Positions 1 to 22,416 of a stretch of 64,000 nt of DNA are shown here, piece by piece. Within the stretch, counting starts at the first letter, position 1, and each line of letters starts with the position of its first letter. The position numbers were made by a program, and so were the translations under genes. Origin of the DNA: a virus (Duplodnaviria; Heunggongvirae; Uroviricota; Caudoviricetes); IMG/VR virus record IMGVR_UViG_3300035703_000003. One strand, given 5' to 3'. The notes beneath the pieces are model-generated. The model had not been told where the DNA came from, searched no databases, and worked only from the letters and a program-made list of their open reading frames with translations.

Positions 1-2
1 AC

Positions 3-917
3 TATCATGCAACAAAAATTGCTGTTCCGTGGGAAAATCAAGGTAGTATAAATCACGCAATAGATATTTTTAAACCAATAAGTTATAAGGTAAGCAAATA
101 TTCAGAGATATTGCCGTATTTTGAAAATTATACAATTAGCTTATCAAAACATGACAAATGGCTAAACGAGGCGTTTAGTGATGCAGAGATGTTTGTCAAT
201 CACAACATACACAAAAGATTCTTTGTAGATAATTTTGAAGACCCCATTACTATATTCAACAAATGGTGGACTTATCATATTAACTGGTGTCAGTTTATTC
301 ATTATACTGCTCAGGTATACAGTGTAAGTGAATTGATGAAAATAGTATCATCTAGCAACACAGATTATGATGCTGTTATAAAATGGAGATTTGATGTACT
401 GTTCGATTATAAAAGTTTCGAATCGATGATAGTTGATCTCATTCGTAATATTAAGGATGATAATGCATTATATACAGAACTCGCTTGGGAGGGAATACAA
501 TGGACAGCCGATCTGAGATCGGATATTAATAATGTCGATAATAAACTAATAAGCCTACACGATGGCTGGTGGATAACAAACAAAGAAGTTAATAAAATCA
601 TGGCTAATAATTATCTCAACTGTTATATGTCGGACATGTGTAACACAGTAGGAAAAGAAGCTGGAACACACACATGGCATTATAACGGCGTAGTTAAGTG
701 TGGTCTATATATTAAATTAATTGGTAGAATAAATCATACAATCATAAGATTTCCTGCTAAAATACCACACGACTGGCACGAAAATACATCTAGTTATTAT
801 CCTCACTTATGGAATTCGCAATTTATCGCCAAAAAAGATAGTGATTTTAAAATGTCTTTACAATATTGGGACAAACGATCTCAATATTATACTATAAAAC
901 ATTTTGATTTTTATTAA
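3..917 (+). CDS. Glycosyltransferase-like protein, 5'-partial (frame open from window start)
   Basis: Frame has no stop from nt 3; YDAVIKWRFD motif matches YDVVLRTRSD of the convergent neighbour; very AT-rich. Confidence 0.5.
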   Translation, partial: YHATKIAVPWENQGSINHAIDIFKPISYKVSKYSEILPYFENYTISLSKHDKWLNEAFSDAEMFVNHNIHKRFFVDNFEDPITIFNKWWTYHINWCQFIHYTAQVYSVSELMKIVSSSNTDYDAVIKWRFDVLFDYKSFESMIVDLIRNIKDDNALYTELAWEGIQWTADLRSDINNVDNKLISLHDGWWITNKEVNKIMANNYLNCYMSDMCNTVGKEAGTHTWHYNGVVKCGLYIKLIGRINHTIIRFPAKIPHDWHENTSSYYPHLWNSQFIAKKDSDFKMSLQYWDKRSQYYTIKHFDFY

Positions 918-1770
918 AATTTTCATAATCTTCTTTTAGTAACTTAAAAGTCATTTGACTCATATCGTGGTTATTCCTTAACACTGTTGAATCAAACGCA
1001 GTAGGCCATGTTACCGAAAAACTTAACCAGTTAGTTTTACTATACGCACTTGTTTTCATCCATACCCAGTGTTGTAATATTGATTTGTAGTCTCCGACTT
1101 TTAAATCATAAAACAATGGTTTGTGCTCTGTTACCAACTTAAAACAATGTTCTTTAAGATTTTTGCTATAGTTATACCAAGGCGTCGGTAAAGAAATAAA
1201 GCAAAAATCTCCGATGTGTGGAGTTCCGCTTTCAATGTATAACCATGGTGCCATTACTTTATCTCTAAACACTGGATTTCTGTGCATATTACTAAATGCT
1301 GCTAGCCATTCAGATTCTGAAATGTTATTTAATATAGTATCACTCCGGGTTCGCAAGACAACATCGTACATACCTTCTAAATTACCGGTCATTGAGGTCA
1401 TGCCGTTGATAGCTAAGTATTGTCCGAAAAAATTAAAGCTATAGTCTGATATATGAGCTTCGTTAGTTTCAAATAAAATACTATGCCTTACGTTGTCAGG
1501 AATAAGATCTAAGTAACGATTATCCTTAACATTATACGCTTTTACATTTCTGATAAACTCAGTCATAACGCTTTTGTAATCAGCGACATGATAACGAACA
1601 GGAGCGTATGTGTTTTCGATACGTTGTTTTAGATTCGGAGAACCGTCGTCCCAAAAATAGCAATAATAATCAACCTTTATATTATTATTTGCAAATACTT
1701 TATTTTTATACCACCAAGAGCCTTCTTCTAAGAATCTCGGTTGACCAGTGACTAGTATTGCTACCCGCAT
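892..1770 (-). CDS. Glycosyltransferase-like protein
   Basis: N-terminal MRVAILVTGQPRF and YDVVLRTRSD motifs typical of phage GT-like proteins. Confidence 0.5.
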   Translation of the reverse strand: MRVAILVTGQPRFLEEGSWWYKNKVFANNNIKVDYYCYFWDDGSPNLKQRIENTYAPVRYHVADYKSVMTEFIRNVKAYNVKDNRYLDLIPDNVRHSILFETNEAHISDYSFNFFGQYLAINGMTSMTGNLEGMYDVVLRTRSDTILNNISESEWLAAFSNMHRNPVFRDKVMAPWLYIESGTPHIGDFCFISLPTPWYNYSKNLKEHCFKLVTEHKPLFYDLKVGDYKSILQHWVWMKTSAYSKTNWLSFSVTWPTAFDSTVLRNNHDMSQMTFKLLKEDYENFNKNQNVL

Positions 1771-1778
1771 ATAACCTC

Positions 1779-2969
1779 TTAATTTAACGGCAATTCGGGA
1801 TTCGGTGTTGTGAAGTTCTTTTTACGCATTACTGTTTTAGCAACTAAGTCTAGCACTTGACTGTGTGAATCCCAATTTAACACAAAAGGAACGTTAATAT
1901 CAGAACGCATGTCCTTGATAACAGCTTGTGCATCAGGACCCATTTGTGCAATCTTTTTACCATAATTAATATACGTGTCTTTGAATAAAATTGCAAGTTC
2001 TTTTATTGTGATTTGTTTCATGTTTCTTTCATCGTTAACACGGTCAAGGAAGTGACGTGTAAATTCTACGTCAATGCCTAACTTTCTAAACAGTTGGTCT
2101 AGATACTTTTCTAGTGTGTCTAACTGAACTTGTGTAATTTGCGGATTGTCTTCTTCATTTATGCCGTATTTGCTTACATATAGTTTTTCTAATTCACGTG
2201 GACTTAATCCAGCTGCGAAACTGTTTGCGATACGGAATGCATAATCACCTAACGAATGTCTTTCGCCCTTGCTTTTTACAAGTCTATGCATTGCTTCTAG
2301 TGCTGCATTGATTAGTTTTTCTTTTGCTTTTACGTTATATTCTTCTCTGTTCATTTCGCTTACATCTCTCACTGTTCTGATGCTACCATCATGGTTTACG
2401 AAATATGCTGAAAATTTCACATTAGGATATTCTTGTTGTAGTTTGTTAAACACTTTCAAGTTAGTCATACTATCGTCATACATTCTAACACGACCGTATT
2501 TTCCCGTATCCAAATAACGTCTTACAAAAACAGCTTTTTTCTCTGCAGGTATTGCATTACTTCTAATATTACCCGCTCTATGCACATGTATTAAGTCTAT
2601 ATTAATACCATGTTGTCTAAATGTATCTAGGAAAAGATCTTTGTCATCGAAATCTTCTCTTGCAGTTAACATAATAACTTTACTATCGCCTGCGTTCTGC
2701 AATATAGCATTTAGTTTTGCTATCATTGGTTTCATAGGCTCGCTTTCTTTATTAAACTTCTCTGCATTTCTGAATTCGCCAAAGTCAAACTCTTCGCCGG
2801 GCTGCAATTCATAATTGTTGAATTGTTGATTGTCTAATGTTTTTACTACATTACCATCCTTTACTACTTTTATCTTAGCAGTAGTATGGAATAATGTATC
2901 ATCAATATCAAATATGGTTAATCCTAAGTTAGAATCACCATAAGCCTCGAAAAGTTCTTTTAATCTCAT
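1779..2969 (-). CDS. Tagged multidomain putative virion protein: HAD phosphatase, small helical domain, possible BECR-fold RNase-like domain
   Basis: Starts MRLKELFE; FDIDDT, LTAR and YDD HAD motifs; C-terminal FTRHFLDR...KTVMRK. Confidence 0.65.
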   Translation of the reverse strand: MRLKELFEAYGDSNLGLTIFDIDDTLFHTTAKIKVVKDGNVVKTLDNQQFNNYELQPGEEFDFGEFRNAEKFNKESEPMKPMIAKLNAILQNAGDSKVIMLTAREDFDDKDLFLDTFRQHGINIDLIHVHRAGNIRSNAIPAEKKAVFVRRYLDTGKYGRVRMYDDSMTNLKVFNKLQQEYPNVKFSAYFVNHDGSIRTVRDVSEMNREEYNVKAKEKLINAALEAMHRLVKSKGERHSLGDYAFRIANSFAAGLSPRELEKLYVSKYGINEEDNPQITQVQLDTLEKYLDQLFRKLGIDVEFTRHFLDRVNDERNMKQITIKELAILFKDTYINYGKKIAQMGPDAQAVIKDMRSDINVPFVLNWDSHSQVLDLVAKTVMRKKNFTTPNPELPLN

Positions 2970-2982
2970 TTATCTAAATCCT

Positions 2983-3882
2983 TTAACGGCGTGTTGTGTT
3001 TGATGGCGGTGTCAACGGTCTAGATGTGCCGCCAGGTCTTGCGGCTTGACCTGGACCTGCTACTGTTCCGCTTGGATTGAATCTCGGAGTTCCGGGTAAT
3101 GGATTTGGATTTATTGTTCCCCCAGGTCTTGCGGCTTGACCTGGACCTGCTACTGTTCCGCTTGGATTGAATCTCGGAGTTCCGGGTAATGGATTTGGAT
3201 TTATTGTTCCCCCAGGTCTTGCGGCTTGACCTGGACCTGCTACTGTTCCGCTTGGATTGAATCGTGTAGGTGGTACATTACTGCTAGCTGGTGGTCTTGC
3301 TGCGTCTAAGCCATCTTGATAACCACGTCTACGTTGTAATTCTGTGTTGCCGTCTCCTCGCCCGCCTGTTGCTGGACTAGCTGCTGGCATACTACCCTGG
3401 GCGCCAACTGTTGGTCTTGCTCCGCCTTGCGCTCTGTTTAACGCAGACATAGTTTGATCACCGGCAATTCCGTCTACTTGTAAACCAAAATCTGTTTGAA
3501 ATTGTTTAACCGCGGCGGCAGTTCTTGGACCAAATTTTCCATCTGCTCCGGTGTCTCCAAGATCATAACCTTTGTCTATCAACATTTGTTGAAGGCCGCT
3601 TACATCAGAACCAGACGAGCCACGTCTTAGATTTGAAGTAGTTGTCCCAGGAGCTCGTACACCTGTGGGTGCTCCACTAGTCGATTGATCAGGTCTAGTT
3701 GGTTGTCCCCGAGTTATAGGCCCGCTAACTTCTTGGCCTGGTCTAGCTGGTAATCCTCTGAATACAGGCCCGCCAGGTCTTGCACTTTGTCCTGGTCCAG
3801 CCACTGTTCCGTCGGGATTAAAATTCGGAGTTCCCCTGCCGGCAGGTAATGCTGGTCTTTCAAATAAATCTTTCAATCTCAT
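2983..3882 (-). CDS. Tagged Pro/Gly-rich protein with PG_binding_1 domain
   Basis: Starts MRLKDLFE; LQQMLIDKGY..GADGKFGPRTAAAVKQFQ..GLQVDGIAG. Confidence 0.8.
   Translation of the reverse strand: MRLKDLFERPALPAGRGTPNFNPDGTVAGPGQSARPGGPVFRGLPARPGQEVSGPITRGQPTRPDQSTSGAPTGVRAPGTTTSNLRRGSSGSDVSGLQQMLIDKGYDLGDTGADGKFGPRTAAAVKQFQTDFGLQVDGIAGDQTMSALNRAQGGARPTVGAQGSMPAASPATGGRGDGNTELQRRRGYQDGLDAARPPASSNVPPTRFNPSGTVAGPGQAARPGGTINPNPLPGTPRFNPSGTVAGPGQAARPGGTINPNPLPGTPRFNPSGTVAGPGQAARPGGTSRPLTPPSNTTRR
3032..3263. repeat. Intragenic 90-bp tandem repeat, about 2.6 identical copies (30-aa unit PGTPRFNPSGTVAGPGQAARPGGTINPNPL)
   Basis: ccaggtcttgcggcttgacc recurs at 3032, 3122 and 3212; diverged copy near 3772-3835. 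Confidence 0.95.
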
Positions 3883-4118
3883 TTTGTTTTTTTCTCCCGG
3901 ACCAGATCGTCCTTGTATTCTTCTATGTAGTATTCTAGTGATTTATCACCACTACATATTTCAAAGTTTTCATTATTTATTGTTTTGCCTCTTATAAGAT
4001 TTTTAGTTTTTTTGTCAATACTCTTAACATGTATTACCATGTCCTTATCCTGATGCTTATAATAAATTATATGCTGCGGATTAAAGTATCTCCAAATCTT
4101 TTTAAAAAACAATTTCAT
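3879..4118 (-). CDS. Hypothetical protein
   Basis: ATGA-type overlaps with both neighbours. Confidence 0.6.
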   Translation of the reverse strand: MKLFFKKIWRYFNPQHIIYYKHQDKDMVIHVKSIDKKTKNLIRGKTINNENFEICSGDKSLEYYIEEYKDDLVREKKTK

Positions 4119-5527
4119 TTCTCACGACCTGCTTTCATATTAGCAAGCCAGTGTGCCATACGCTGCTTTTCGCCTGAACTATTTTTAGCTGTTTTTCGCA
4201 AATCACTAACACTGGCTTTGGTATTTACACCCATACGCTTTGCCAGACCTTTGCGCCCTGGATTTTTACCATCTGCAAAGTTTTCATTTGTTTTTTCTAC
4301 AGGGAAATATGCTTTAATAGTTTTACCCATACGTTGCGCTGCGGCTGCACGATGGTTGCCATCAATTACACTGTACTTACCGTCACTAAACTGTGGTCCT
4401 ACAATAATTGGTGCGCTTAGGTCAACACGATGACTGTAGTCGATATCTACAATACGATCAAATGGATCATCATAGTCGAAGAATTCTTCCTCACTTGGGA
4501 ACATGTCTGGGGTAAAGTTTCCAAGTTGCCAATCATGAGCTAAGATGAACCGATCCATGTCTTTGTTCATACCAGCATCGTGATGCATACCTCTGAAGAT
4601 TTTCAGCATTTCTTTGCCAGATTCTTCAGCTAATCCTTCTCTAGCCGCCGCTGCTTTTTCATCACTAGTATCGCCGGTAACCTTGTATGTTTTACCGTTT
4701 ACACTAAATTCTTTTTTACCTGCTTTGATAGCATTCATACGTGCATCAGTAAATGGGTTTGATTCGTTAATATTGTCTGATAATAGATTAACAATTTTAG
4801 GCAATAGAGACTGATTCCTTGTAGCTTCTGGCAAGTCGCTATCTTTCATTGGTCTAATGCCTTTTATTTTTACATGCTCATTCTTTTCAAAACGTTTAAT
4901 AAACTTCTCAACGGGCAATGGGCCGTCATAGTCAATTAATGTGTTTCCAAGTTTAACTGCAGCGTGATCTGCGTTGCCACGATCATTAATAAGAACCACT
5001 ATATCTCCACCGTGTATTTTTTGTAATGCTTGTGCTACTAATACACATCCACCATCAAACGGACCACAATCTTCGGGTTCTAAAATGTCATAAATGTTTT
5101 CTTTTGCTTCATTAGTAAGATCATGTGCAACCTTAAGTGCTGCTGGACCTTGTGGATGTCTTGGATTGATACTAACAACATCGCCGTTCATAAGATCACT
5201 GACGCTGGCACTCTTGCCTATTTTGTCTAACAGTTGATGTAACTTATCCTCAGGATCATAACCGTTTGTCTCGTATCCTAGTTTACCACGCACTTCAGTT
5301 CGCTTGCCTGTTTGTTTGTTTAAAATATGTAGGACTAGCATACCTGCACGGTTGTCACGCTCCAGTTGTAACATGTAACTATTGCCACTGCTTTCTTTAA
5401 GATAAGGTAAACTGAACCACAGCTTAAACCAATCGTCTGTTCCTGGCTTTACTTTCTTTTCACGCTCGATGTCACGCAAACGCTTGCTTGTATGACTAAT
5501 ATTTTCTGATATTTCGTTTATTTTCAT
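4115..5527 (-). CDS. Tagged polyvalent protein with a Cys-His-Asp (papain/transglutaminase-like) domain and a ParB/Srx domain
   Basis: Starts MKINEISE; GGCVLVAQAL..DHAAVK..IDYDG; PIIV..YSVIDGNHRAAAA. Confidence 0.65.
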   Translation of the reverse strand: MKINEISENISHTSKRLRDIEREKKVKPGTDDWFKLWFSLPYLKESSGNSYMLQLERDNRAGMLVLHILNKQTGKRTEVRGKLGYETNGYDPEDKLHQLLDKIGKSASVSDLMNGDVVSINPRHPQGPAALKVAHDLTNEAKENIYDILEPEDCGPFDGGCVLVAQALQKIHGGDIVVLINDRGNADHAAVKLGNTLIDYDGPLPVEKFIKRFEKNEHVKIKGIRPMKDSDLPEATRNQSLLPKIVNLLSDNINESNPFTDARMNAIKAGKKEFSVNGKTYKVTGDTSDEKAAAAREGLAEESGKEMLKIFRGMHHDAGMNKDMDRFILAHDWQLGNFTPDMFPSEEEFFDYDDPFDRIVDIDYSHRVDLSAPIIVGPQFSDGKYSVIDGNHRAAAAQRMGKTIKAYFPVEKTNENFADGKNPGRKGLAKRMGVNTKASVSDLRKTAKNSSGEKQRMAHWLANMKAGREK

Positions 5528-5889
5528 TTCGCCAGACCTAAGTTAAACAATGTATTTGTTGTGCTAGTATTTAACAGTTTTGGCTTGCCGTCGCCTCCGA
5601 AAAACTTTTTAGCTTGACGCTCAGTTTCACCGGGCTTAACATCGACTGTAGTATTAACACCAGGAACAATTTTACCATCTTCATCTACACGCTTGCCACG
5701 CTTACCGTAAGCACCGCCTGCATACCACTCACACCATCCGTTTGGGTCTATGTTACCTGCAACTGCACTACATTTGTTAGGATCTCTCCACATTGTGCAG
5801 TTAATACATTTTTGTCCGTTCTTAGGATCAGGCTGATAACCTGCTTCAGCCTTAGACCCTTTCCCTTCAAATAGCTCATGTATTCTCAT
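5524..5889 (-). CDS. Tagged protein with high-potential iron-sulfur protein (HiPIP)-like domain
   Basis: Starts MRIHELFE; YQPDPKNGQKCINC-x8-CSAVAGNIDPNGWC, the four-Cys small HiPIP pattern. Confidence 0.75.
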   Translation of the reverse strand: MRIHELFEGKGSKAEAGYQPDPKNGQKCINCTMWRDPNKCSAVAGNIDPNGWCEWYAGGAYGKRGKRVDEDGKIVPGVNTTVDVKPGETERQAKKFFGGDGKPKLLNTSTTNTLFNLGLAK

Positions 5890-7082
5890 CTTGGTCCTAC
5901 TCCCATTGCCGTTGGCGGTGTTCCAGTTGATGGTTTAGGTTTAGGAGGAGTGATAGGCTTTGGTGCAGACTTGGGGGGAGTTAATCCGGTCCCTGTTCTA
6001 TCTTGTGCGCCCATCGGTGTTGGACTTCCTGACCCTGTAGTTAGTTTAGGTATATTAGTCGGAGTAGTTGGGGCCACTCTCGGTGTTGGACTAACAGGTC
6101 TAGTAGGTAAACTTACGTTGTTAAAGATTTCTCGCATAGCACTTAATGTTTGCACGCCTGCTATACCATCAACTTGTAGACCGTAATCTTGTTGAAACTT
6201 TCTTACCGCTGCAGTTGTATTCCCGCCATAACGACCGTCGACTCCCTGATCGCCTACAGTATATCCTAATGTTGTAAGACCTTTTTGTAAAGTTTTAACA
6301 CTGTCTAATGGAACACCTTCTGCTCTGTAATCTCTTTTAAGATTTATTGCTCCACTAGGACCTGGCAACTTACTAACATCAATTTTAGGGATAACTTTAG
6401 GTGGTATAACGTTTACTCTAGCAGGAATACTTGTAAATGGATTTGGAACGGCATTCGGGGGAGTTAACTTGGGACGTTCTAAGTTCGGTGCGGACATAGT
6501 AGACACTGTTGTTCTAAACGCAGATGGTGATGTATAATTTGGCCCAGCTGTAGTTAATGCTCTATCTAATGTATTATATCCTGCTGATAAGTTTGCATAT
6601 CCATCTGCACTGTAATTAGGATCAGTGCGACGCCATCTAATATAGTTGTCTCCTAATACTTCTGCTGCAGTGTTAGGGTCAATATCAGGATTTCCTAAAA
6701 ATTCGGTTGCAGTTCTACGATATGACGGCTCGTTTTCCATTTCATATCTAACAAACTTTGCTTGTGCATCTAATGTTTCTTGTCCGGGTATAAGATTTCC
6801 GCTATTATCTATCCGGCCTTGGTCGTTCATAAATCTCATAAATGAATCATGACGTGGTCCTTGCCAGCTAATCATACCTGCATTGCTAGCACGATTGTAT
6901 GGATCTGTATGCGTTCCATACAAATATCTGTCTTGAAAACTATTTTCTCTATTAACCTCTGCAGTAAGAGCTCTTGCTTGAGCATCACTAAATCCTGCAT
7001 TAGTAAATGCATTATAAACGCCCAATGCGTTTGCTTCACGACTAGTTAATTCTCCTGCTTCGAACAGTTCTTTTAATCTCAT
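5886..7082 (-). CDS. Tagged virion peptidoglycan hydrolase: tail-lysozyme-like domain, PG_binding_1, Pro-rich tail
   Basis: Starts MRLKELFE; AQARALTAEVNRENSF..GMISWQGPR..LDAQAKFVRYEM; VDGRYGGNTTAAVRKFQ..GLQVDGIAG. Confidence 0.75.
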   Translation of the reverse strand: MRLKELFEAGELTSREANALGVYNAFTNAGFSDAQARALTAEVNRENSFQDRYLYGTHTDPYNRASNAGMISWQGPRHDSFMRFMNDQGRIDNSGNLIPGQETLDAQAKFVRYEMENEPSYRRTATEFLGNPDIDPNTAAEVLGDNYIRWRRTDPNYSADGYANLSAGYNTLDRALTTAGPNYTSPSAFRTTVSTMSAPNLERPKLTPPNAVPNPFTSIPARVNVIPPKVIPKIDVSKLPGPSGAINLKRDYRAEGVPLDSVKTLQKGLTTLGYTVGDQGVDGRYGGNTTAAVRKFQQDYGLQVDGIAGVQTLSAMREIFNNVSLPTRPVSPTPRVAPTTPTNIPKLTTGSGSPTPMGAQDRTGTGLTPPKSAPKPITPPKPKPSTGTPPTAMGVGPR

Positions 7083-7086
7083 TTTA

Positions 7087-7722
7087 TTATCCTGCTAGTA
7101 TAGTTAATAGTTGTAGTATTGCTTCTGGATGCATCGATTGTCTTGGTGTAGCTAACAGTTGAATTTCTGTTCGCATTTTGTCTGCGTCTTCTGGACTTAC
7201 TCCACGGCTTTCTAGTTTGTCGATAAGATTGTTAATTTTATTTAAATCAATCGGGAGTGGTGGTTGCTCTTGTTCTCCTGCTTCTGTTGCAAAGGATCTT
7301 AATTTTCTTGCTATTTTAGGGTCTCTTAGTAATCTTAACGCTTTTACTCCTAGTTGGCCGACACGGCCATCGCTTATTCCCAATACATTTGCTATTTGTG
7401 TATTTGTCATAGGATTATTAAATGGTTCAATTCCAAACTGTGCTTTAAGTATTAGTGCGTATCGGCGTGGTAATTGATCTATTGCTGCATGTATTTCTTT
7501 TGTTAGTTCTTCACGATTTACTGTATCGAATTGGTCAGCATCATAGCTACCGGTGGGGAAATCAACTTGTGTGCCTTTAACAGTAATGTCTCTTTTACTA
7601 ATACTTTTACTGTTAGGCACTCTGCCCCCGATAGTAGTGTTGCGGTATGTTTCGCTGTCTGGATTGTATAACGCCATTACCTGCTTATCACTAAATGTTT
7701 CTGATAAATCTCTTAGTTTCAT
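7087..7722 (-). CDS. Tagged protein with a stand-alone RpoD-like sigma70 region 4 HTH
   Basis: Starts MKLRDLSE; LPRRYALILKAQFGI..MTNTQIANVLGISDGRVGQLGVKALRLLRDPKIARKLRSF aligns to the RpoD C-terminus. Confidence 0.8.
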   Translation of the reverse strand: MKLRDLSETFSDKQVMALYNPDSETYRNTTIGGRVPNSKSISKRDITVKGTQVDFPTGSYDADQFDTVNREELTKEIHAAIDQLPRRYALILKAQFGIEPFNNPMTNTQIANVLGISDGRVGQLGVKALRLLRDPKIARKLRSFATEAGEQEQPPLPIDLNKINNLIDKLESRGVSPEDADKMRTEIQLLATPRQSMHPEAILQLLTILAG

Positions 7723-8276
7723 TTTTTATATTGTCCCAAATATTCAGCTACTAAGTCAAAGAAAGGTTTACCATCAATCATAGTATCGGCAGATACACCT
7801 GCAGCATCTGCAAATGCTTGTTTGTCTCCCATTGCAACCGCTGTTCTTAATGCAGTTGCACTACTTAATCTTGGTGTTGGCACTTGTGTTATTTTAGGGA
7901 AGTTATAACCACCATGTGCGCCCTCTTTGCCATTATATTGCTGTAATGTTTTTAAAACCCAATCTTCGTCGGTATAGATCCTCAATTCAACATCGCCGTG
8001 TTTTTGATAAATTTCGTTTGCAAGTGTAAGCCAGCTTTGACTAGGTGCAATATGCTTTGCTACTTCTGGCCAAATAGTTTCCATTGCTTTTATTTTTACA
8101 TCATATGGTAACGGATCTTTTGGACCTTGTGTAGATTTGTTTGTGCCAACATACCAAGCAGGATTTTCACTAGCCATTTGCCATGCAGCTTTATGACCTT
8201 TATGAGGAGGATTGAATCGTCCAAATATTAATCCTACACTATTAACGTTTGCTTCAAATAATTCGAATAATCTCAT
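7719..8276 (-). CDS. Tagged HxGH cytidyltransferase/NMNAT-like nucleotidyltransferase
   Basis: Starts MRLFELFE; FGRFNPPHKGH, KDPLPYDVK, SSATALR. Confidence 0.8.
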   Translation of the reverse strand: MRLFELFEANVNSVGLIFGRFNPPHKGHKAAWQMASENPAWYVGTNKSTQGPKDPLPYDVKIKAMETIWPEVAKHIAPSQSWLTLANEIYQKHGDVELRIYTDEDWVLKTLQQYNGKEGAHGGYNFPKITQVPTPRLSSATALRTAVAMGDKQAFADAAGVSADTMIDGKPFFDLVAEYLGQYKK

Positions 8277-8303
8277 TTTACTGTTTCCTTGTCAACCTTG
8301 TCA

Positions 8304-8660
8304 TCACCAAGCCCTGCAACTCCAGTATCTTGCTTTAGTCTTAGGCCCAGGATTATCGCAATTGTGTCTTGCACGGAAACTACGGCGACGTGCTGGGTTT
8401 GATTTTTTAATACGCATGTTTGGATCACCAAAGTTTACTTTTTTAACATTTCCTGTGCCAGGATCTTTTACATAAACTTTGAATTTTTTTACATCGCCTT
8501 GCATAGGCTTGTTGAGCTGCACATTGCGCCCTTGATATTCGGCTTCGAAGAGACCATCTTCGTCATATGCTAAGTAGCCAAATTCTTCGTGAAAATCTTG
8601 ATTATCATCTAACGTGATTTCGTTTTCACTATTCTCGGTTATAAGGTCTGAAAATTTCAT
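8304..8660 (-). CDS. Tagged conserved basic phage protein (DUF6321-like)
   Basis: Starts MKFSDLITE; KKVNFGDPNM..RRRSFRARHNC..ARYWSC. Confidence 0.6.
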   Translation of the reverse strand: MKFSDLITENSENEITLDDNQDFHEEFGYLAYDEDGLFEAEYQGRNVQLNKPMQGDVKKFKVYVKDPGTGNVKKVNFGDPNMRIKKSNPARRRSFRARHNCDNPGPKTKARYWSCRAW

Positions 8661-8664
8661 AAGA

Positions 8665-8708
8665 ACACCCTCGGTAATACTTTAATATAGTATTTAGCCC
8701 GAGGGTGT
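8665..8708 (-). promoter_or_regulatory. SD-sequestering hairpin containing a TAAATA late-promoter motif
   Basis: acaccctcgg (8665-8674) is the inverted repeat of ccgagggtgt (8699-8708); TAAATA at 8691-8696 on the minus strand. Confidence 0.6.
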
Positions 8709-8719
8709 ATGGTTTACTA

Positions 8720-9637
8720 TTATGCGTTAGTAATTTTAGCAACAGTTGAAGTTGCAGTGCCTAGTGTCCACGGAACGCTTCTACCAGTTGTGAATACTGT
8801 ACCTGTTCCCTGAGTCAATGTTGCTCTACGAGCAGTTAACTTAGTTACATAATATGTATCACCTGCAGCGTCTGTAGCAACAATACTGCATTCACCTGCC
8901 GCATTCGCTAATGAAGATTGCAGTTGGACAATGCCAGTGCGAGTACCGTCTGTTACTTTATAACGGTTTGTGGAAACTTGACGCAATATGTCAACTTGTA
9001 CAGCCGAACCACCGGTTAAGAAACCAATCATTGTGATTGAGTTTTCTTGGTTTCCTGTAGTTCCTATAATACCACTGTCAGTACCAAGTACGGCTGTAGC
9101 AGCACCAGTGCCACCGCTAAATGTGATAGCTGCATCTGCTGCATCAGTATAACCAGAACCTTGTTCAGTAATAGTAATGTCTTTAACACGATATGTGATA
9201 GTTAGTGTAGCACCAGTGCCGCCTGCTGGAGCAACTGTTGTTGTTTTAGCACCAGTAGTTGTTGCAGTGAATGTACCACGATTTAGTGGTGTTACTGTTG
9301 CAACTGCAGTAGTCGACAATGTTGCTACTGTGAATGTAGCTGTTTGACCACCGTAAGTAACAGTTAGCACATCATTCACAGAGTAGCCTGACCCGCCTGC
9401 TGTTACAACTGCACTTAGTACTTCCATAACAGTAGTACCAGTAGCAGTAACACCGCCAACTGCTGCCTTGTCAGGTGCAGAAAACGTTACTGTTGGCTGG
9501 TCGGCACCTAGATATGAACCTGCAGTAGTAATAGTTACACTTGATACAAAACCACCGCCGATGCCGTTGTCTGCTGCTGTGCTTGCGGAACCGATATTGC
9601 GGTTACCGAAGAATTTCTTATTTAATGGACGCCCCAT
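8720..9637 (-). CDS. Putative virion structural protein (Thr/Gly/Ala-rich beta repeats)
   Basis: GSGY-type repeats, strong SD AAGGAG, TATAAATA upstream. Confidence 0.65.
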   Translation of the reverse strand: MGRPLNKKFFGNRNIGSASTAADNGIGGGFVSSVTITTAGSYLGADQPTVTFSAPDKAAVGGVTATGTTVMEVLSAVVTAGGSGYSVNDVLTVTYGGQTATFTVATLSTTAVATVTPLNRGTFTATTTGAKTTTVAPAGGTGATLTITYRVKDITITEQGSGYTDAADAAITFSGGTGAATAVLGTDSGIIGTTGNQENSITMIGFLTGGSAVQVDILRQVSTNRYKVTDGTRTGIVQLQSSLANAAGECSIVATDAAGDTYYVTKLTARRATLTQGTGTVFTTGRSVPWTLGTATSTVAKITNA

Positions 9638-9718
9638 TTTGTTTCTCCTTAATTTGACGTTCTAGGTCCTACGGGGTGGGAGCCCCATAACGCTGCAATT
9701 ATTACAGTTCCTATACAT

Positions 9719-9726
9719 TATTTATA
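9719..9726 (-). promoter_or_regulatory. T4-like late promoter TATAAATA
   Basis: Exact T4 late consensus upstream of a structural gene; TAAATA also at 10226, 14196, 14626, 15085, 18014, 18613, 24457, 52333 and 60353 (-) and at 24476 and 56662 (+). Confidence 0.55.
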
Positions 9727-10222
9727 AGATTGGACGTCTTATACCCAATGCATAACTTGCAGGATATAACTTAAAACTAACACTGTTGTTTTGATTGCCG
9801 CCTAACACCCAATACCATTTTTTGCCGTCTATATATACAGTGCTAGCATGTATACCTACATGTCCTTGCCAACTTTGACTTCCACGTGGAAATACAAGTA
9901 TGTCACCGGACTGCGCTACATTGACCGGGTGACCCCATTTTAAGAAACTTCTAGCTAACAACGGATTGTCGCTTACAGTACCAGACCCTTGTATGTCGTT
10001 CATATCTAATACTGCATTTACAAATGCAGCACACCACTCAGTTCTAACAGGATCCACACCAAGTGTTTCGGTCAACTGTCTTCTGTGATGCTTTTCTGAA
10101 AAACCAGTGAACTGTTCAGCAGTGCTGATAATTTCCTCGGAAGGAGTTTCTTTTGGTTTATCGAGTGTGAATAAAGGCGCACACCCTGTTATTAGTAAAC
10201 AAAATAAAATCACTCTCATCAC
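9722..10222 (-). CDS. TIGR02594-family NlpC/P60-CHAP-like cell-wall peptidase, lipoprotein
   Basis: Lipobox LITGC; WCAAFVN, ARSFLKWG, GHVG, VLGGNQNNSV. Confidence 0.85.
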   Translation of the reverse strand: MMRVILFCLLITGCAPLFTLDKPKETPSEEIISTAEQFTGFSEKHHRRQLTETLGVDPVRTEWCAAFVNAVLDMNDIQGSGTVSDNPLLARSFLKWGHPVNVAQSGDILVFPRGSQSWQGHVGIHASTVYIDGKKWYWVLGGNQNNSVSFKLYPASYALGIRRPIL

Positions 10223-10285
10223 ATGTATTTAAAGAAAAATCTAAAAATACACAGTGACAAGAGTGACGGATAAGCAAAAAGTTGC

Positions 10286-11122
10286 TTATTCAATAAACCA
10301 ATTTTTGATTACTAATAGAGGAACAGTGTTATCGATGTTAGTTCTGATTTCACTTGTAACTACGTTTACTTCAACTCCTTCGTTAATTTGTTTACTAAAA
10401 TTAACAATAAATGGGCTGTGCTTACGATCAACATGAATTTCGACAGCACCGATGTTAGACTCGCAAATGTAGTAATGGTTGTTACGCTGCGAAAACTCAA
10501 ATACATTCTTTACAAACAATTTACGATTTTTGTATTCTTCAGGATCGTAAGCAAAACGTTCACTTCTTGCAAAGTATGATACGTAGTTGTTGTAAATCGC
10601 AGTTTTAAGAAAAGGTGCAGCATTTGTTAACATGCCCTCTACACTTACATTTTCACTAAGTCGATCACATGTAGTATCAATACGATACTGTAGTTCTAAC
10701 CACAATGCAAACCTAATCATTTTGTCGATTTGTTCATGTCGAGAAGTCTTGTTAGTTGTTCCGCTAAACACATCTCTATCGACATTTTTACTTTTTTCAA
10801 AAATAAAGTCTTTAAGATTTTCTCTAAAACCACTAAGGCTAAATTGACACAACGTAGCTCGAATAAACTGTTCTCGATAATAGTTCCAAATTGTTTCTGC
10901 TTCAGATTTACTCAGTTTAGGATTGGATAAACAAAACAAATCAAAGTTAGTGGTTTTACTCGGAATACACTTAAATGTATGCCCAGTTCCATTAACTGTG
11001 TAAGTGTGCATCTCTTTGTCTATGCTATCATCAATTCCTTGTCCATACAACGTTGCACCAGGATTATTATACTGCCGAGTTACTGCAGTTACAGTTGCTA
11101 CAGCTGGATTAAAAAAAGACAT
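10286..11122 (-). CDS. Hypothetical protein
   Basis: 278-aa ORF with SD, in operon. Confidence 0.7.
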   Translation of the reverse strand: MSFFNPAVATVTAVTRQYNNPGATLYGQGIDDSIDKEMHTYTVNGTGHTFKCIPSKTTNFDLFCLSNPKLSKSEAETIWNYYREQFIRATLCQFSLSGFRENLKDFIFEKSKNVDRDVFSGTTNKTSRHEQIDKMIRFALWLELQYRIDTTCDRLSENVSVEGMLTNAAPFLKTAIYNNYVSYFARSERFAYDPEEYKNRKLFVKNVFEFSQRNNHYYICESNIGAVEIHVDRKHSPFIVNFSKQINEGVEVNVVTSEIRTNIDNTVPLLVIKNWFIE

Positions 11123-18618: not shown

Positions 18619-19317
18619 TTACGCTTCGCTAAACAATTCGACTTTTGTGGTTTTACGAATATCGTTTTTGTATATCATATGTATTGTGCATAAGTCTTCG
18701 TAATTTTTCAAATAAACAGATGCAGCTATACGCCAAGGCATGTAAGCAGAACCAAATATACTAACAGGTGAGGATTGTGAGGATTTAAAATAATAATCGT
18801 ATGATGAAAACCCGTTACTGAACTTATAACTTCCTTCTTCAAAGTTCTCTGTTATAAAGTCTCTGAAGTTGTCAATAAAATCCATACCTTCTGATCGATA
18901 ACAAACTATATCTACTTTATATCTATACAAGTTATAGTATAATTTATTTTTATAGATAACATTAATGTCTGCTAACATTGTGTCTTGTTGTTTTTCAGAC
19001 ATAGGTCCAGTGATATGTTCGACAAAATTCCAACCCACTTCATTGGCAATTTTAAATACATCGTCGGCAGTTTTCAAATAAACGTTAAAGTATGTATCTG
19101 ATCTTATCCTATATTCTATACCTGCAGATTTTTTCATAAACTTTCGCAATTGGCGCTGCATCTTAATAATATCATCGTTTGCAACACCAATACGACCGCC
19201 GTCCACTATCCAATAGCCAGACAAACTAAGCCTGTATGGGAATTTATTATACCAGACCTCTTGCGAGATCTGGTAATTTTTATGTGTCTTAAGATGTTCT
19301 AACGCAGAGTGTGTCAT
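18619..19317 (-). CDS. Hypothetical protein with two internal repeats
   Basis: WYNKFPYRL/YYNLYRYKV and VYLKTADD/VYLKNYED duplications. Confidence 0.65.
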   Translation of the reverse strand: MTHSALEHLKTHKNYQISQEVWYNKFPYRLSLSGYWIVDGGRIGVANDDIIKMQRQLRKFMKKSAGIEYRIRSDTYFNVYLKTADDVFKIANEVGWNFVEHITGPMSEKQQDTMLADINVIYKNKLYYNLYRYKVDIVCYRSEGMDFIDNFRDFITENFEEGSYKFSNGFSSYDYYFKSSQSSPVSIFGSAYMPWRIAASVYLKNYEDLCTIHMIYKNDIRKTTKVELFSEA

Positions 19318-21526
19318 TTTCTAGGACCAATTGAACTGTTGTAATATTGTCACCAAACAGTAATTCTTTAGCAAGCGGCTTTTTAACTTTTTCGTTAATT
19401 AACCGGGCCATTGGTCTAGCGCCCATACTTTCAGTGAACCCATTGGTAGTAAGCCATTCGAGAGCATCTTCATCGAATGTAAATTCAATGTTACGTGGCT
19501 TAAGCATATCGTCTAGTTCCTTTAAGAACTTAATGGTTACATTATGCATTAGCTCTTTGTCTAGTTTGCGGAATGTAACAATTGCATCGAGACGATTACG
19601 GAATTCTGGACTAAAGAAACGTTTTACTGCTTCGTCACTTGCAGACGTATTTGTGTTGTTTCCAAATCCAATAGTGTTACGTTCTGCATCACGGGCACCT
19701 AGGTTACTAGTAAGGATAAGAATAGTGTTTCTTGCACTTACTGTTTTACCTTCACTGTTAGTAATCATACCGTTATCCATAAGTTGTAGCAACACATTGC
19801 TTACGTCTGGATGTGCTTTTTCAATCTCATCTAGCAGTAGAATACAGTTTGGATTTTCTTCTAGTTTGTTTACAAGAAGACCACTACCTTGACCACCTTC
19901 GCCATAACCTACATACCCAGGAGGTGCACCGATTAGTTTAGCAACAGTGTGCCGCTCTTGATACTCGCTCATATCGAAACGAACAAGAGGCATAGTCATT
20001 GCTGTACTAAGTTGTTTTGCAGTTTCAGTTTTACCTACACCGGTTGGGCCTGTAAATAGGAAACAACCGATTGGCTTGTTAGGATCTTTAAGTCCTGCTT
20101 TTGCAATATAGATAGCATCTGCAAGTCTTGTTAGTGCTTCATCTTGACCAAACACTTTTGTTTTAAGTGTAGCTTCAATATTGATAGGCTTTTCTTTTTT
20201 GTATTCGCTGTCTTTGGTAAGAACAAGCTGGTCAACAGGAATACGTGTTAGTTTGGCTACTTCAAAACGAATATCATCTAGTTCGAGAACATGCTTACGC
20301 TTATCCATCGGCAATAGCTTTTGTCTAGCTGCGGCTGCATCAAGAGCATCAAATGCCTTATCGGGTAATTGCCTGTTGTGCCAATATTGATGTGTAAGAT
20401 CTACAGCACCGTGCAATGCATCTTTTGTGTATGTGATTTCGTGGAATAGTTCGTATGACGGAATAGCATTTTCTACAATACGTTTTGCATCTGCTACACT
20501 TGGCTCGGGCACATCGACTTTGTAAAAACGTCTTACAAGGGCCTTGTCCTTCTCGAAGTGTTCACGATACTCGTCGTATGTAGTAGACCCAATGCAACGT
20601 AGCTTACCCTTTTGTAGGGCAGGTTTGAGTAGGTTTGCAACGTCCATGTTGCCGCCGCCTGCACTACCTGCACCCATAATCATATGAATTTCGTCGATAA
20701 ACAAAATTGCATCGTCACGGTTTTCTAGAACGTCTAGCACTTCTTTAATACGTTCTTCGAAGTCTCCACGGAATTTTGTGCCTGCTAGTAATGCACCAAT
20801 GTCTAGTCCGTAAATTGTGTGATCTTTAATAACATCAGGAACATTGTCCTCATTGATAAGATGTGCAAGACCTTCGACAATTGCAGTTTTGCCTACACCG
20901 CTTTCGCCAACAAGAATGACGTTATTCTTTTTACGACGAGCAATAGTCTGGACTAGTTGTTCTAATTCATTTTCACGACCAATAATCGGATCAACAATAC
21001 CATCTGCAGCTTGCTCGTTTAAGTTAACGCAAAATTTACGTAGCAGTCGATCACCTTTAATCGGCTTTGCTTTTAAGTCAACTTCGTCTGCAGTAGGTTT
21101 GTGTGTATCGCTAATATAACCCACAAGCGAGTCACGATTAATGCCATAGTTGCCTAATAGGTAAACTGCAGGGCTACTCGACTCACTCAAAATGCTGATA
21201 AGCAAATCACGTGGATCTAGTTTTTGCCTTCCGTTAAACAGTGCTTGTGTGAATGCACGATTGAATACACGCTCTAGCATAACTGTTTTTTTTGGCTGAA
21301 CGTTTTCTTCGTTAGGTAAACTATCTACTTCATTTTCTAGGTAGGTTGTTAATGCAGTTAGAATTACTGATGCATCTTGATTAAAATCTGCCAAGATATC
21401 TTGAACTTCATCTGTATCTAGCAAGATTGCAAGCAAGTGTTCTAACGTAACATATTCGTGTTTTAGGTCTTTTGATAGAGCAAATATACGTTCTACGAGT
21501 TGTTCAATTTTGTCATTTTGCGACAT
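19289..21526 (-). CDS. clpA: ATP-dependent Clp protease ATPase subunit ClpA
   Basis: HEYVTLEHLL N-domain; two AAA modules (GESGVGKT, GPTGVGKT); IGF ClpP-docking loop; no ClpB middle domain. Confidence 0.93.
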   Translation of the reverse strand: MSQNDKIEQLVERIFALSKDLKHEYVTLEHLLAILLDTDEVQDILADFNQDASVILTALTTYLENEVDSLPNEENVQPKKTVMLERVFNRAFTQALFNGRQKLDPRDLLISILSESSSPAVYLLGNYGINRDSLVGYISDTHKPTADEVDLKAKPIKGDRLLRKFCVNLNEQAADGIVDPIIGRENELEQLVQTIARRKKNNVILVGESGVGKTAIVEGLAHLINEDNVPDVIKDHTIYGLDIGALLAGTKFRGDFEERIKEVLDVLENRDDAILFIDEIHMIMGAGSAGGGNMDVANLLKPALQKGKLRCIGSTTYDEYREHFEKDKALVRRFYKVDVPEPSVADAKRIVENAIPSYELFHEITYTKDALHGAVDLTHQYWHNRQLPDKAFDALDAAAARQKLLPMDKRKHVLELDDIRFEVAKLTRIPVDQLVLTKDSEYKKEKPINIEATLKTKVFGQDEALTRLADAIYIAKAGLKDPNKPIGCFLFTGPTGVGKTETAKQLSTAMTMPLVRFDMSEYQERHTVAKLIGAPPGYVGYGEGGQGSGLLVNKLEENPNCILLLDEIEKAHPDVSNVLLQLMDNGMITNSEGKTVSARNTILILTSNLGARDAERNTIGFGNNTNTSASDEAVKRFFSPEFRNRLDAIVTFRKLDKELMHNVTIKFLKELDDMLKPRNIEFTFDEDALEWLTTNGFTESMGARPMARLINEKVKKPLAKELLFGDNITTVQLVLENDTLCVRTS

Positions 21527-21585: not shown

Positions 21586-22416
21586 TTAGTTAAAAACATC
21601 ACGCAAAGTTTTATCTAAGTCTTCTTCTGTTAAGCTAGGTATAATAACACTAACTTCTATATATAGATTTCCGTTGGGACTATTGCGTTGAGGCAAGCCG
21701 CCCTCTGGTATTCTAAGTCGTGTTCCTGTCTGTGTTCCTGATTTTATATGTAGTTTTAGTTGACGGTTGTCAAGTGTATCTACCACTTTTTCTGTTCCCA
21801 ACATTGCTTCTTTTAGCGAAAGTCGGATTGGTAGAACTACATTGTATTCTTCTACTCTGAATTTTGCATGTGACTTAATTTGAAACGTAACTACAAGGTT
21901 ACCTGGTTTACCTTGGTAAGTGTTATCACCAAACCCTTGATATCTTATTTGTGTTCCGTGAGTAACGCCCTTAGGTATTTCGATAGTTACTGCCCTTTGT
22001 GTTCCGTTTGGTAGATTTATGTTTAGGTTTTTCTTAGCGCAGTTGAACACATCTTCTAAATCCACACTGTATGTAATATTTATATCTTGGTTACGTGAAT
22101 TCTGTTTAAAATCAGTAAAAGGATTTCTGCCACCAAAGTGTTGTGCAAACAAGTCATTAAAATTTGCAAACGGGTCTGCGTCGGGACGCCTTGATTGATA
22201 GTTGCGAAATGCTTGTTCGGACGCTTGTTCTTCGTTGAACTTTTCTCTAGCATTAGCATCTTTGATACTATCATATGCTCCGTTTATTTCTGCAAACTTT
22301 TCGTGAGATCCTCCTTTATCAGGATGATACTCTTTTGCAAGTTTACGATAGGCAGCTTTAATTTCAGCATCAGACGAAGTCTTGCTAACGCCCAATACGC
22401 TATATGGATCGGTCAT
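21586..22416 (-). CDS. DnaJ/CbpA-type co-chaperone (no Zn finger)
   Basis: J domain with HPD; DnaJ C-terminal domains. Confidence 0.9.
   Translation of the reverse strand: MTDPYSVLGVSKTSSDAEIKAAYRKLAKEYHPDKGGSHEKFAEINGAYDSIKDANAREKFNEEQASEQAFRNYQSRRPDADPFANFNDLFAQHFGGRNPFTDFKQNSRNQDINITYSVDLEDVFNCAKKNLNINLPNGTQRAVTIEIPKGVTHGTQIRYQGFGDNTYQGKPGNLVVTFQIKSHAKFRVEEYNVVLPIRLSLKEAMLGTEKVVDTLDNRQLKLHIKSGTQTGTRLRIPEGGLPQRNSPNGNLYIEVSVIIPSLTEEDLDKTLRDVFN

What the first reader, a model, noticed from the sequence alone, without database searches (positions are those of the whole stretch)
1779..8660. Array of unrelated enzymes and effectors sharing an N-terminal tag: a putative capsid-packaged, co-injected toolkit
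Seen: eight of nine consecutive genes start with the same tag: MRLKELFE, MRLKDLFE, MKINEISE, MRIHELFE, MRLKELFE, MKLRDLSE, MRLFELFE, MKFSDLITE. After the tag the proteins are unrelated (HAD, PG-binding, ParB, HiPIP, lysozyme, sigma region 4, nucleotidyltransferase). No gene outside this block obviously carries it. Known: T4 internal proteins have a capsid-targeting sequence of about 10 aa ending in Glu (IPIII MKTYQEFIAE), which prohead protease gp21 removes after (I/L)-x-E. Inference: this is a modular address label that loads diverse captured domains into the head for delivery with the DNA, giving a plug-and-play host-takeover or anti-defence locus.
Basis: partly seen in the sequence, partly recalled or inferred. 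Interest (0 to 1): 0.9.

Follow-up and report, generated by a model that had tools for sequence, protein, structure and literature searches.

The report
Capsid-address tags on jumbo-phage cargo genes
An uncultured T4-related jumbo phage starts a run of otherwise different proteins with one 8-9-residue label that looks like phage T4's signal for loading proteins into the head and clipping them there. It is a large new example of a known trick, not a new principle.

Summary
Eight of nine consecutive minus-strand genes (1779-8660) start with M-[KR]-[LIF]-x-[ED]-[LI]-x(x)-E. A six-frame scan finds no other such start in the 64 kb (8/9 against 0/112 ORFs, Fisher p about 1e-11). Codons differ synonymously, so selection acts on the peptide.

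The window is a T4-related jumbo phage; its clamp loader is 54% identical to that of Pseudomonas phage PA5oct. The best reading is a T4-type capsid targeting sequence removed by a gp21/S77 prohead protease.
- In 31 nucleotidyltransferase orthologues, Glu8 is invariant while the linker varies.
- AlphaFold leaves residues 1-8 outside the fold.
- Homologues of the HAD cargo carry either this 8-mer or a canonical T4-like 10-mer before the same domain.
- The small basic domain of the first gene always follows (L/I/V)-x-E in T4-like phages. It starts at Met-Ala in phages of other types.
- The tag occurs in S77 genomes that lack ClpP and radical SAM genes.

Not shown: encapsidation, cleavage, ejection, or any anti-defence role. 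No whole genome is held, so the window phage's own protease was not seen.

The principle is textbook T4 biology. This scan has reported similar arrays on other phage DNA (for example e1-5511678, e1-5406787, e1-5376900, e1-5323079). I class it as a new member of a known kind, of moderate interest.

The parts
8304..8660 (-). First tagged gene (118 aa). It has a tag ending ITE at residue 9 and a second L-F-E site at residues 37-39. A 79-aa very basic C-terminal core follows (8307-8543, pI 10.7, net charge +15).
   Evidence: (phrog_7595). In a podovirus, a siphovirus, a roseophage and an archaeal virus it starts at Met-Ala.
7719..8276 (-). Tagged HxGH nucleotidyltransferase (185 aa) with an NMNAT/PPAT-like fold.
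   Evidence: 31 orthologues: M1 and E8 invariant; L3, L6, F7 at 90% or more; pLDDT 91.7, residues 1-8 below 50; Foldseek: NadM, NadD, archaeal NMNAT, PPAT, TM about 0.55.
7087..7722 (-). Tagged protein (211 aa) with a sigma-70 region 4 domain and a C-terminal module of about 60 aa.
   Evidence: In relative L032 the same C-terminal module follows a different N-terminal part.
5886..7082 (-). Tagged Phage_lysozyme2 plus PG_binding_1 protein (398 aa).
   Evidence: The lysozyme domain starts at residue 18.
5524..5889 (-). Tagged HiPIP-like four-cysteine protein (121 aa) with a basic tail.
   Evidence: (PF01355, 24.5 bits, above the cut-off).
4115..5527 (-). Tagged mosaic protein (470 aa) of unknown function. 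A ParB-like stretch is possible near the C-terminus.
   Evidence: no family match, weak leads only. In L032 the counterpart is 1148 aa, with the shared pieces in a different order.
3879..4118 (-). Untagged 79-aa gene inside the array, start and stop overlapping its neighbours. It is conserved in relatives.
2983..3882 (-). Tagged PG_binding_1 protein (299 aa, pI 11.6) with Pro/Gly-rich repeats.
   Evidence: The repeat region differs in L032 and L152.
1779..2969 (-). Tagged HAD-type phosphatase-like protein (396 aa, DxDxT motif) with a C-terminal phrog_23027 module.
   Evidence: Homologues carry either an 8-mer tag or a T4-like 10-mer directly before the same HAD motif.
8665..8708 (-). RNA hairpin in the gap before the first tagged gene. 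Its 3' arm holds the only GAGG upstream of the start codon.
   Evidence: -20.9 kcal/mol, z = -4.6. L032 has a hairpin of different sequence at the same place (-18.8 kcal/mol, z = -5.5), followed by a U run.
9719..9726 (-). TATAAATA, the T4 late-promoter consensus (from my own knowledge), 82 nt upstream of gene 8720-9637, which precedes the array.
   Evidence: and conserved with its flanks in L032. The overall count in the window is not above chance.
8720..9637 (-). Untagged 305-aa gene just upstream of the array, possibly a virion protein.
   Evidence: weak PHROG match to head closure Hc2, 7.5e-6.
892..1770 (-). Untagged 292-aa gene bounding the array. With the plus-strand ORF 3-917 it separates this block from further tag-like genes seen in contig L152.
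   Evidence: (no Pfam).

Best explanation
The shared 8-9 residues are a T4-type capsid targeting sequence that also carries a prohead-protease site. The genes form one tightly coupled operon with no terminator-like site inside it. It follows a structural-like gene that has a T4-type late-promoter match, so late transcription is likely (inferred). Each product carries a flexible leader, Met, basic, hydrophobic, x, acidic, hydrophobic, x, Glu. The leader is inferred to dock the protein to the assembling scaffolding core. After shell assembly the phage's gp21-like (Peptidase_S77) protease would cut after the Glu at position 8 or 9. In the first gene it would cut again after L-F-E at residue 39. 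The mature, mostly neutral-to-basic proteins would stay in the head with the DNA and probably leave with it at infection. Shown here: the tag itself, its restriction to the array, its selection as a peptide, its position outside the folded domains, its interchangeability with T4-like tags on the same cargo, and its association with S77-bearing phages. Inferred: core binding, cleavage, encapsidation and ejection.
For: 1. The tag is on 8 of 9 genes and nowhere else in the 64 kb.
2. The same peptide is written with different codons.
3. In 31 nucleotidyltransferase orthologues of 61-93% identity, M1 and E8 are invariant and L3, L6, F7 are kept at 90% or more. Residues 9-13 vary freely.
4. The AlphaFold model has pLDDT 91.7 overall but below 50 for residues 1-8. 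Pfam and PHROG domains begin at residues 13-18 in four cargos.
5. HAD-cargo homologues fetched without regard to their N-termini carry either the 8-mer or a T4-like 10-mer such as MKRFSQFIAE. T4 IPII and IPIII begin MKTYQEFIAE. Both tag types sit directly before the same HAD motif.
6. The tags closely resemble the N-termini of T4 gp24 and Alt, whose N-terminal propeptides gp21 removes (sequences; processing: PMC5694885, PMC9026906).
7. The basic core of the first gene follows Glu in 23 of 23 distinct homologues, with L/I/V at P3 in most, whether 10 or 446 residues precede it. In HTVC202P, Kolga, CRP-901 and a Nitrosopumilaceae virus the same domain starts at Met-Ala with no leader.
8. Peptidase_S77 is present in PA5oct, in 4 of 5 long related contigs, in complete genome G010 and in Melnitz, P-SSM2 and T4.
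9. In related head modules the capsid protein and scaffold N-termini carry L-x-E sites. The PA5oct tagged 73-aa gene lies between portal and protease, and its record annotates it as a structural protein detected by ESI-MS/MS.
10. About 50 cargo architectures carry the tag across about 113 loci. Close relatives differ in cargo.
11. The cargo is more basic than the rest of the window: median pI 8.9 against 5.7, Mann-Whitney p = 0.003.
Against: There is no virion proteomics, N-terminal mapping or ejection assay for this phage or for any phage carrying these cargos.

The window phage's own protease, scaffold and capsid genes were not seen, because no whole genome is held.

PA5oct and the 270-kb contig G001 carry only 2-4 such tags, so a large array is not general in the lineage.

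The conserved Glu before the basic core could in principle belong to the domain. The leaderless forms in other phages argue against that.

The late-promoter match is a single 8-mer whose count in the window is not above chance.
Confidence: 0.78

Rival explanations
1. The tag does load the proteins into the prohead, but they act inside the particle (DNA condensation, inner-body or scaffold roles, or they are degraded there). They would not be a delivered host-takeover or anti-defence toolkit.
For: Several products are basic, and one is a small, very basic domain. In T4 many core proteins with gp21 sites are simply degraded (PMC9026906). No cargo matched a known anti-defence family in the searches run.
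Against: Enzyme-like cargos make little sense as purely internal packing material. These include the NMNAT/PPAT-like transferase, the HAD phosphatase, the lysozyme with its peptidoglycan-binding domain and the sigma region 4 protein. T4 Alt and the IPs are ejected (PMC9026906).
Confidence: 0.12
2. The tag is a degron or adaptor signal for the phage's own ClpA-ClpP protease, giving timed turnover of these proteins.
For: The window encodes ClpP (62104-62691) and a two-ring Clp ATPase (19289-21526). ClpP also occurs in G001 and PA5oct.
Against: The same kind of tag sits on orthologous or analogous cargo in T4, P-SSM2 and Melnitz. Those phages have S77 but no ClpP. The invariant terminal Glu and the hydrophobic P3 fit the gp21 rule.
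Confidence: 0.04
3. The tag is a recognition leader for a modifying enzyme such as a radical SAM maturase. An earlier check in this scan concluded this for a shared tag in phage RB43.
For: Earlier notes report many radical SAM genes elsewhere in this same genome (e1-5618959). There is a precedent in e1-127136.
Against: No radical SAM match above the cut-off was found in the 39-kb contig that holds the array, in complete genome G010 (8 or more tags), in Melnitz or in PA5oct. No such gene lies beside the array in the window.
Confidence: 0.03
4. The shared N-terminus has no targeting role. It would reflect a translation-initiation preference, a recombination joint or a duplication relic.
For: Lys or Arg codons after ATG are common in well-expressed genes. 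Several genes are translationally coupled.
Against: Synonymous codon differences rule out a DNA- or RNA-level element. The motif is absent from the 112 other ORFs. Glu8 is invariant across orthologues next to a variable linker. The cargos are not paralogues.
Confidence: 0.03

Closest known systems
Phage T4 capsid targeting sequence on internal proteins IPI, IPII, IPIII and Alt, removed by prohead protease gp21 (Mullaney and Black 1996, as reviewed in PMC9026906, PMC3012670 and PMC5694885)
   Same: Both have a short N-terminal leader ending in hydrophobic-x-Glu, shared by otherwise different proteins. Both occur in a T4-related phage lineage with a Peptidase_S77 protease. Enzyme cargo is known in T4 (Alt). 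HAD-cargo homologues in related contigs carry leaders almost identical to the T4 IPII/IPIII leader.
   Different: The leader here is 8-9 residues, against 10-19 for the T4 IPs. It looks more like the T4 gp24 and Alt propeptides. Eight tagged genes, with about four or five more tag-like genes beyond the window edge, lie in one coupled array, where T4 has a few scattered genes. The cargo is mostly multi-domain and enzyme-like. Nothing has been tested experimentally.
Variable internal-protein sets of T-even phages, which share only the targeting sequence (PMC3012670; PMC9026906 section 3.1)
   Same: The cargo set differs between close relatives while the leader is kept. A GIY-YIG homing-endonuclease-like gene sits inside the array of relative L032.
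   Different: The cargos here are far larger and mosaic. One gene is 470 aa in the window and 1148 aa in L032, with the shared pieces in a different order.
Propeptide-processed ejection proteins of phiKZ-like giant phages (SPN3US, phiKZ; PMC5694885)
   Same: Many head-packaged proteins are cut after Glu by a diverged gp21 homologue.
   Different: Those phages use an (A/S/G)-x-E rule. Their propeptides are often longer than 100 residues, and they belong to a different lineage.
PA5oct 73-aa head-module protein (PQE65_gp333), between portal and protease
   Same: It begins with a window-type tag, MKINDIITE. Its GenBank record annotates it as a structural protein detected by ESI-MS/MS. PA5oct is the closest cultured relative by clamp loader (54%).
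   Different: It is a single small gene at the position of T4 gp67, not an enzyme array. The PA5oct nucleotidyltransferase homologue has no tag and no MS note.

Membership tests
T4-type capsid targeting sequence / internal-protein system | Short N-terminal leader ending in (L/I)-x-Glu at the first start codon | tested here: met
   All eight tags end L-F-E, I-S-E, L-S-E or I-T-E at residue 8 or 9.
T4-type capsid targeting sequence / internal-protein system | The leader is shared by proteins that are otherwise unrelated | tested here: met
   (about 50 cargo architectures in relatives). Two window cargos do share PG_binding_1.
T4-type capsid targeting sequence / internal-protein system | The same genome encodes a gp21-type (Peptidase_S77) prohead protease | tested here: inconclusive
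   No genome is held for the window and no S77 gene was recognised among the window proteins scanned. S77 is present in PA5oct, in 4 of 5 long related contigs and in G010.
T4-type capsid targeting sequence / internal-protein system | The leader is an appendage, not part of the cargo fold | tested here: met
   (pLDDT below 50 for residues 1-8 only). Domain starts at residues 13-18. Leaderless homologues of the basic core occur in phages of other types.
T4-type capsid targeting sequence / internal-protein system | Sequence likeness to leaders that gp21 is known to remove | tested here: met
   T4 N-termini read from the T4 record. gp24 and Alt resemble the window tags. HAD-cargo homologues carry near-copies of the IPII/IPIII leader.
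T4-type capsid targeting sequence / internal-protein system | Proteins are present in virions with a mature N-terminus after the Glu | not testable with these tools
   This needs virion proteomics and N-terminal mapping. The only indirect support is the ESI-MS/MS note on the tagged PA5oct gene.
T4-type capsid targeting sequence / internal-protein system | Proteins are ejected into the host with the DNA | not testable with these tools
   There is no cultured host and no experiment.
Variable internal-protein loci of T-even phages | Cargo content varies between close relatives while the leader is conserved | tested here: met
   The window was compared with L032 (75-90% DNA identity across the collinear pieces) and with L152.

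The most novel reading that the evidence does not exclude
The leader rule (Met, basic, hydrophobic, x, x, hydrophobic, x, Glu) may let the whole set of injected proteins of T4-like marine and freshwater phages be read from sequence. Under this reading the set includes conserved enzymes pre-loaded to act at the moment of entry. Examples are an NMNAT-like adenylyltransferase and a HAD phosphatase that restore or protect nucleotide cofactors against NAD-depleting defences, and a peptidoglycan hydrolase that aids penetration.
Probability: 0.15. Interest if true: 0.8.

Novelty: new member of a known kind. Interest (0 to 1): 0.55.

Why it matters
If the tag works as in T4, a simple sequence rule would mark which proteins uncultured T4-related phages carry in their heads. 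That gives a list of candidate first-strike effectors without needing culture. In this phage the list has eight proteins in the window and about four or five more just beyond its edge. The natural variants found here offer ready-made controls for experiments: the same cargo with an 8-mer tag, with a T4-like 10-mer tag, or with no leader in phages of other types. The principle itself has been known since the 1990s and is already used to load foreign proteins into T4.

Tried and rejected
- Whole-genome retrieval failed because no genome is held. The window phage's own protease could therefore not be sought.
- Megablast of 20 kb against cultured phages gave nothing.
- PDB sequence searches of three cargos gave nothing useful.
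- ESM Atlas look-ups gave only weak leads for 4115-5527 and 1779-2969. I do not endorse the 'ParB' label.
- The AlphaFold model of the 79-aa basic core was poor (pLDDT 50), so I ran no fold search on it.
- The HAD cargo has almost no cultured-phage relatives. No proteomic link could be made for it.
- The PA5oct paper says nothing about propeptides.
- Full-text searches found no paper linking capsid targeting sequences to cyanophages, other than a T4 review.
- Sigma-70 promoter and terminator scans of 1-11000 were at background. CTAAATAC and TATAAATA counts are not above chance.
- Single-linkage clustering of cargos merged most proteins because of shared modules. I replaced it with clustering that requires 60% mutual coverage.
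- I did not run a complex prediction. The docking partner (scaffold or protease) of this phage is not available, and a negative result would say nothing.
- The ClpP-degron and radical SAM leader ideas were tested and set aside.


Full report
OBSERVATION. On the minus strand, nine tightly packed genes run from 8660 down to 1779. Four junctions are 4-base start/stop overlaps and the other gaps are 4-27 bases. Eight of the nine begin, at the first possible start codon, with Met, Lys/Arg, Leu/Ile/Phe, x, Glu/Asp, Leu/Ile, x(x), Glu. The exception is a 79-aa gene at 3879-4118. I tested every in-frame Met followed by at least 50 codons in all six frames, and the motif occurs only at these eight starts in the 64 kb. 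A looser form of the motif gives the same eight. With position-specific residue frequencies from the other 112 ORFs, the per-ORF chance is about 8.5e-5, and 8/9 against 0/112 gives Fisher p = 1e-11. The same residues are written with different codons (four Leu codons, GAA and GAG, GAT and GAC), so what is conserved is a peptide, not a DNA or RNA element.

WHAT THE PHAGE IS. The window encodes a T4-type clamp loader, RNA ligases 1 and 2, UvdE, PhoH, a two-ring Clp ATPase, DnaJ, ClpP and PRPP synthetase. The clamp loader is 54% identical to that of Pseudomonas jumbo phage PA5oct and 45% to Atu_ph07. No cultured phage matches at DNA level. IMG/VR holds a 39-kb contig (L001/L032) whose tagged proteins are 93% identical to the window's. 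CheckV rates it 9% complete, which suggests a genome near 400 kb. It also holds many more distant contigs of up to 270 kb. No whole genome is held for the window.

THE TAG IS A CONSTRAINED APPENDAGE. I aligned 31 orthologues of the nucleotidyltransferase (61-93% identity). Met1 and Glu8 are invariant, as the catalytic motif residues are. Leu3, Leu6 and Phe7 are kept in at least 90%. Residues 9-13 vary freely. The AlphaFold model built on that alignment is confident (pLDDT 91.7) except for residues 1-8, which fall below 50. In four cargos the Pfam or PHROG domain starts at residues 13-18.

COMPARATIVE EVIDENCE LINKING THE TAG TO THE T4 SIGNAL. First, homologues of the HAD-type cargo were fetched by similarity to the whole protein, without regard to their N-termini. 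They carry either a window-type 8-mer or a 10-mer such as MKRFSQFIAE, directly before the same DxDxT motif. T4 IPII and IPIII begin MKTYQEFIAE. One of those contigs, G010, is a complete 162-kb genome with terminal repeats and an S77 protease. It has at least eight T4-type leaders, four of them on consecutive genes.

Second, the same regular expressions applied to T4 recover IPII, IPIII, gp24 and Alt. All four have N-terminal propeptides removed by gp21 (PMC5694885, PMC9026906). The gp24 and Alt leaders resemble the window tags closely.

Third, the 79-aa very basic C-terminal core of the first gene (pI 10.7, net charge +15) is preceded by Glu in all 23 distinct homologues found here's viral-contig loci. 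Leu, Ile or Val sits three residues before the boundary in most of them. This holds whether 10 or 446 residues come first. In a pelagiphage podovirus, a siphovirus, a roseophage and a Nitrosopumilaceae spindle-shaped virus, the same domain starts at Met-Ala with no leader. I did not check those four genomes for S77; they are simply not T4-like myoviruses.

Fourth, the P-SSM2 cytidyltransferase and the Melnitz nucleotidyltransferase fusion begin with T4-like leaders. In Melnitz the basic core is fused to the end of the nucleotidyltransferase protein, and in HTVC008M it is the next gene. In the window the two are also neighbours.

PROTEASE. Peptidase_S77 scores above the Pfam cut-off in 4 of 5 long related contigs and in PA5oct, G010, Melnitz, P-SSM2 and T4. 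In the related head modules, the capsid protein and the scaffold begin with L-x-E sites. In PA5oct only two ORFs in 287 kb carry the strict tag. One is a 73-aa gene between portal and protease, at the position of T4 gp67, and its record annotates it as a structural protein detected by ESI-MS/MS. The PA5oct nucleotidyltransferase homologue has no tag and no such note.

PLASTICITY. Across about 113 loci I found 131 distinct tagged proteins in about 50 architectures. Most have no Pfam family. Those that do include cell-wall hydrolase and several DUFs. The closest relative keeps the gene order but differs in four ways. It has a GIY-YIG endonuclease-like gene between the first two cargos. Its nucleotidyltransferase has a longer C-terminus. 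A different N-terminal module replaces the sigma region 4 part. Its counterpart of the 470-aa protein is 1148 aa, with the shared pieces in a different order. A JGI contig carries the identical 292-aa neighbouring gene. There, two untagged genes are followed by five more genes with similar starts, about four of them tag-like. The array therefore extends beyond the window's left edge.

RIVALS TESTED. A ClpAP degron: the window, G001 and PA5oct have ClpP, but T4, P-SSM2 and Melnitz have tags and S77 without ClpP. A radical SAM recognition leader, as this scan concluded for an RB43 tag: no radical SAM match above the cut-off in the array contig, G010, Melnitz or PA5oct. A translation or recombination artefact: excluded by the codon differences and by the absence of the motif elsewhere. 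A secretion signal: from inspection, the tag is short and acidic and has no hydrophobic core.

CARGO. From 8660 downwards the cargos are as follows.
- A small basic domain protein.
- An HxGH nucleotidyltransferase whose fold is nearest NadM, NadD, archaeal NMNAT and PPAT (TM about 0.55). Its substrate is unknown.
- A sigma-70 region 4 protein.
- A Phage_lysozyme2 plus PG_binding_1 protein.
- A HiPIP-like protein.
- A mosaic protein of unknown function, for which 'ParB' is unconfirmed.
- The untagged 79-aa protein.
- A PG_binding_1 protein with Pro/Gly repeats.
- A HAD phosphatase-like protein with a second module.
The block has median pI 8.9, against 5.7 for the rest of the window. For the eight tagged proteins against the other 112 ORFs, Mann-Whitney p = 0.003.

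EXPRESSION CONTEXT. A TATAAATA lies 82 nt upstream of the untagged 305-aa gene that precedes the array, and it is conserved with its flanks in the relative. Between that gene and the first tagged gene is a strong hairpin (8665-8708, -20.9 kcal/mol, z = -4.6). Its 3' arm holds the only GAGG before the start codon. The relative has a hairpin of different sequence at the same place, followed by a U run. No minus-strand terminator-like site lies inside the array. This fits one late unit with damped read-through into the cargo genes, but that is inference.

WHAT IS KNOWN. [quoted passage not shown] They also say that the first 10 residues of IPIII suffice for loading, that Alt loses 7 residues, and that the sequence may be a general way for T4-like phages to load varied proteins (PMC3012670, PMC9026906, PMC5694885). 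I found no paper extending this to cyanophages or to PA5oct-like jumbo phages, but the searchable library is incomplete. Other follow-ups in this scan reached the same reading on other phage DNA.

VERDICT. This is a real, non-random feature. It is best explained as a T4-type loading and processing leader on a large, variable cargo operon (confidence 0.78). Encapsidation, cleavage, ejection and any anti-defence role remain untested. I class it as a new member of a known kind, with interest 0.55.

Noticed in passing
window 62104-62691, 19289-21526, 21586-22416: The phage encodes ClpP (2e-79), a two-ring ClpA/ClpB-like ATPase and a DnaJ. The PA5oct homologue of the ClpP is annotated 'head maturation protease' with an ESI-MS/MS note, although PA5oct also has a true S77 protease in its head module.
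   Followed up: partly
window 8665-8708 (minus strand); L032 8891-8929: There is a strong hairpin just before the first tagged gene. In the window it sequesters the only GAGG before the start codon. The relative has a different stem sequence at the same place, and both hairpins contain TAAATA. This recalls T4 genes whose ribosome site is freed only in late transcripts, which is my own recollection and was not tested.
   Followed up: partly
L032 9312-10004: A GIY-YIG homing-endonuclease-like ORF of 230 aa lies between the first two cargo genes of the closest relative. It is absent from the window.
   Followed up: no
window 8307-8543; L168-L172: The 79-aa basic core domain is spread across very different marine viruses: pelagiphage podoviruses and siphoviruses, roseophages, Flavobacterium myophages and Nitrosopumilaceae spindle-shaped viruses. 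One record annotates it 'HVA1 family protein'.
   Followed up: partly
L149 9001-10953; L172 1-1161: The nucleotidyltransferase and the basic core are linked across T4-like marine phages. They are fused in one 650-aa protein in Melnitz, adjacent in HTVC008M and adjacent in the window.
   Followed up: partly
window 4115-5527 versus L032 12903-16349: The same gene is 470 aa in the window and 1148 aa in the relative, with the shared DNA pieces in a different order. Other first-reader notes in this scan read it as a polyprotein with Glu junctions.
   Followed up: partly
window 3879-4118: The one untagged gene of the array (79 aa, pI 9.4) is conserved at the same position in L032 and L152 and is translationally coupled on both sides. 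Its function is unknown. An assembly helper or an inhibitor of a neighbouring cargo is conceivable.
   Followed up: no
window 58619-59554, 57524-58207, 55860-56612: The window also encodes a PRPP synthetase, a BAX-inhibitor-1 family membrane protein and a truncated-looking UDP-glucose dehydrogenase-like gene.
   Followed up: no
L173 18966-19130 and L176 16061-16885 (T4 record coordinates 18966-19130 and 76061-76885): In T4 itself, a 54-aa ORF begins MKTFKEFIKE, close to the IPI leader. A 274-aa ORF, which I take from memory to be gene 2 (the DNA-end protector), begins with a window-type motif.
   Followed up: no
window 2983-3882; L152 161-1057; L032 16564-17292: The Pro/Gly-rich repeat region of the PG_binding_1 cargo differs in unit sequence and number between near-identical strains.
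   Followed up: no
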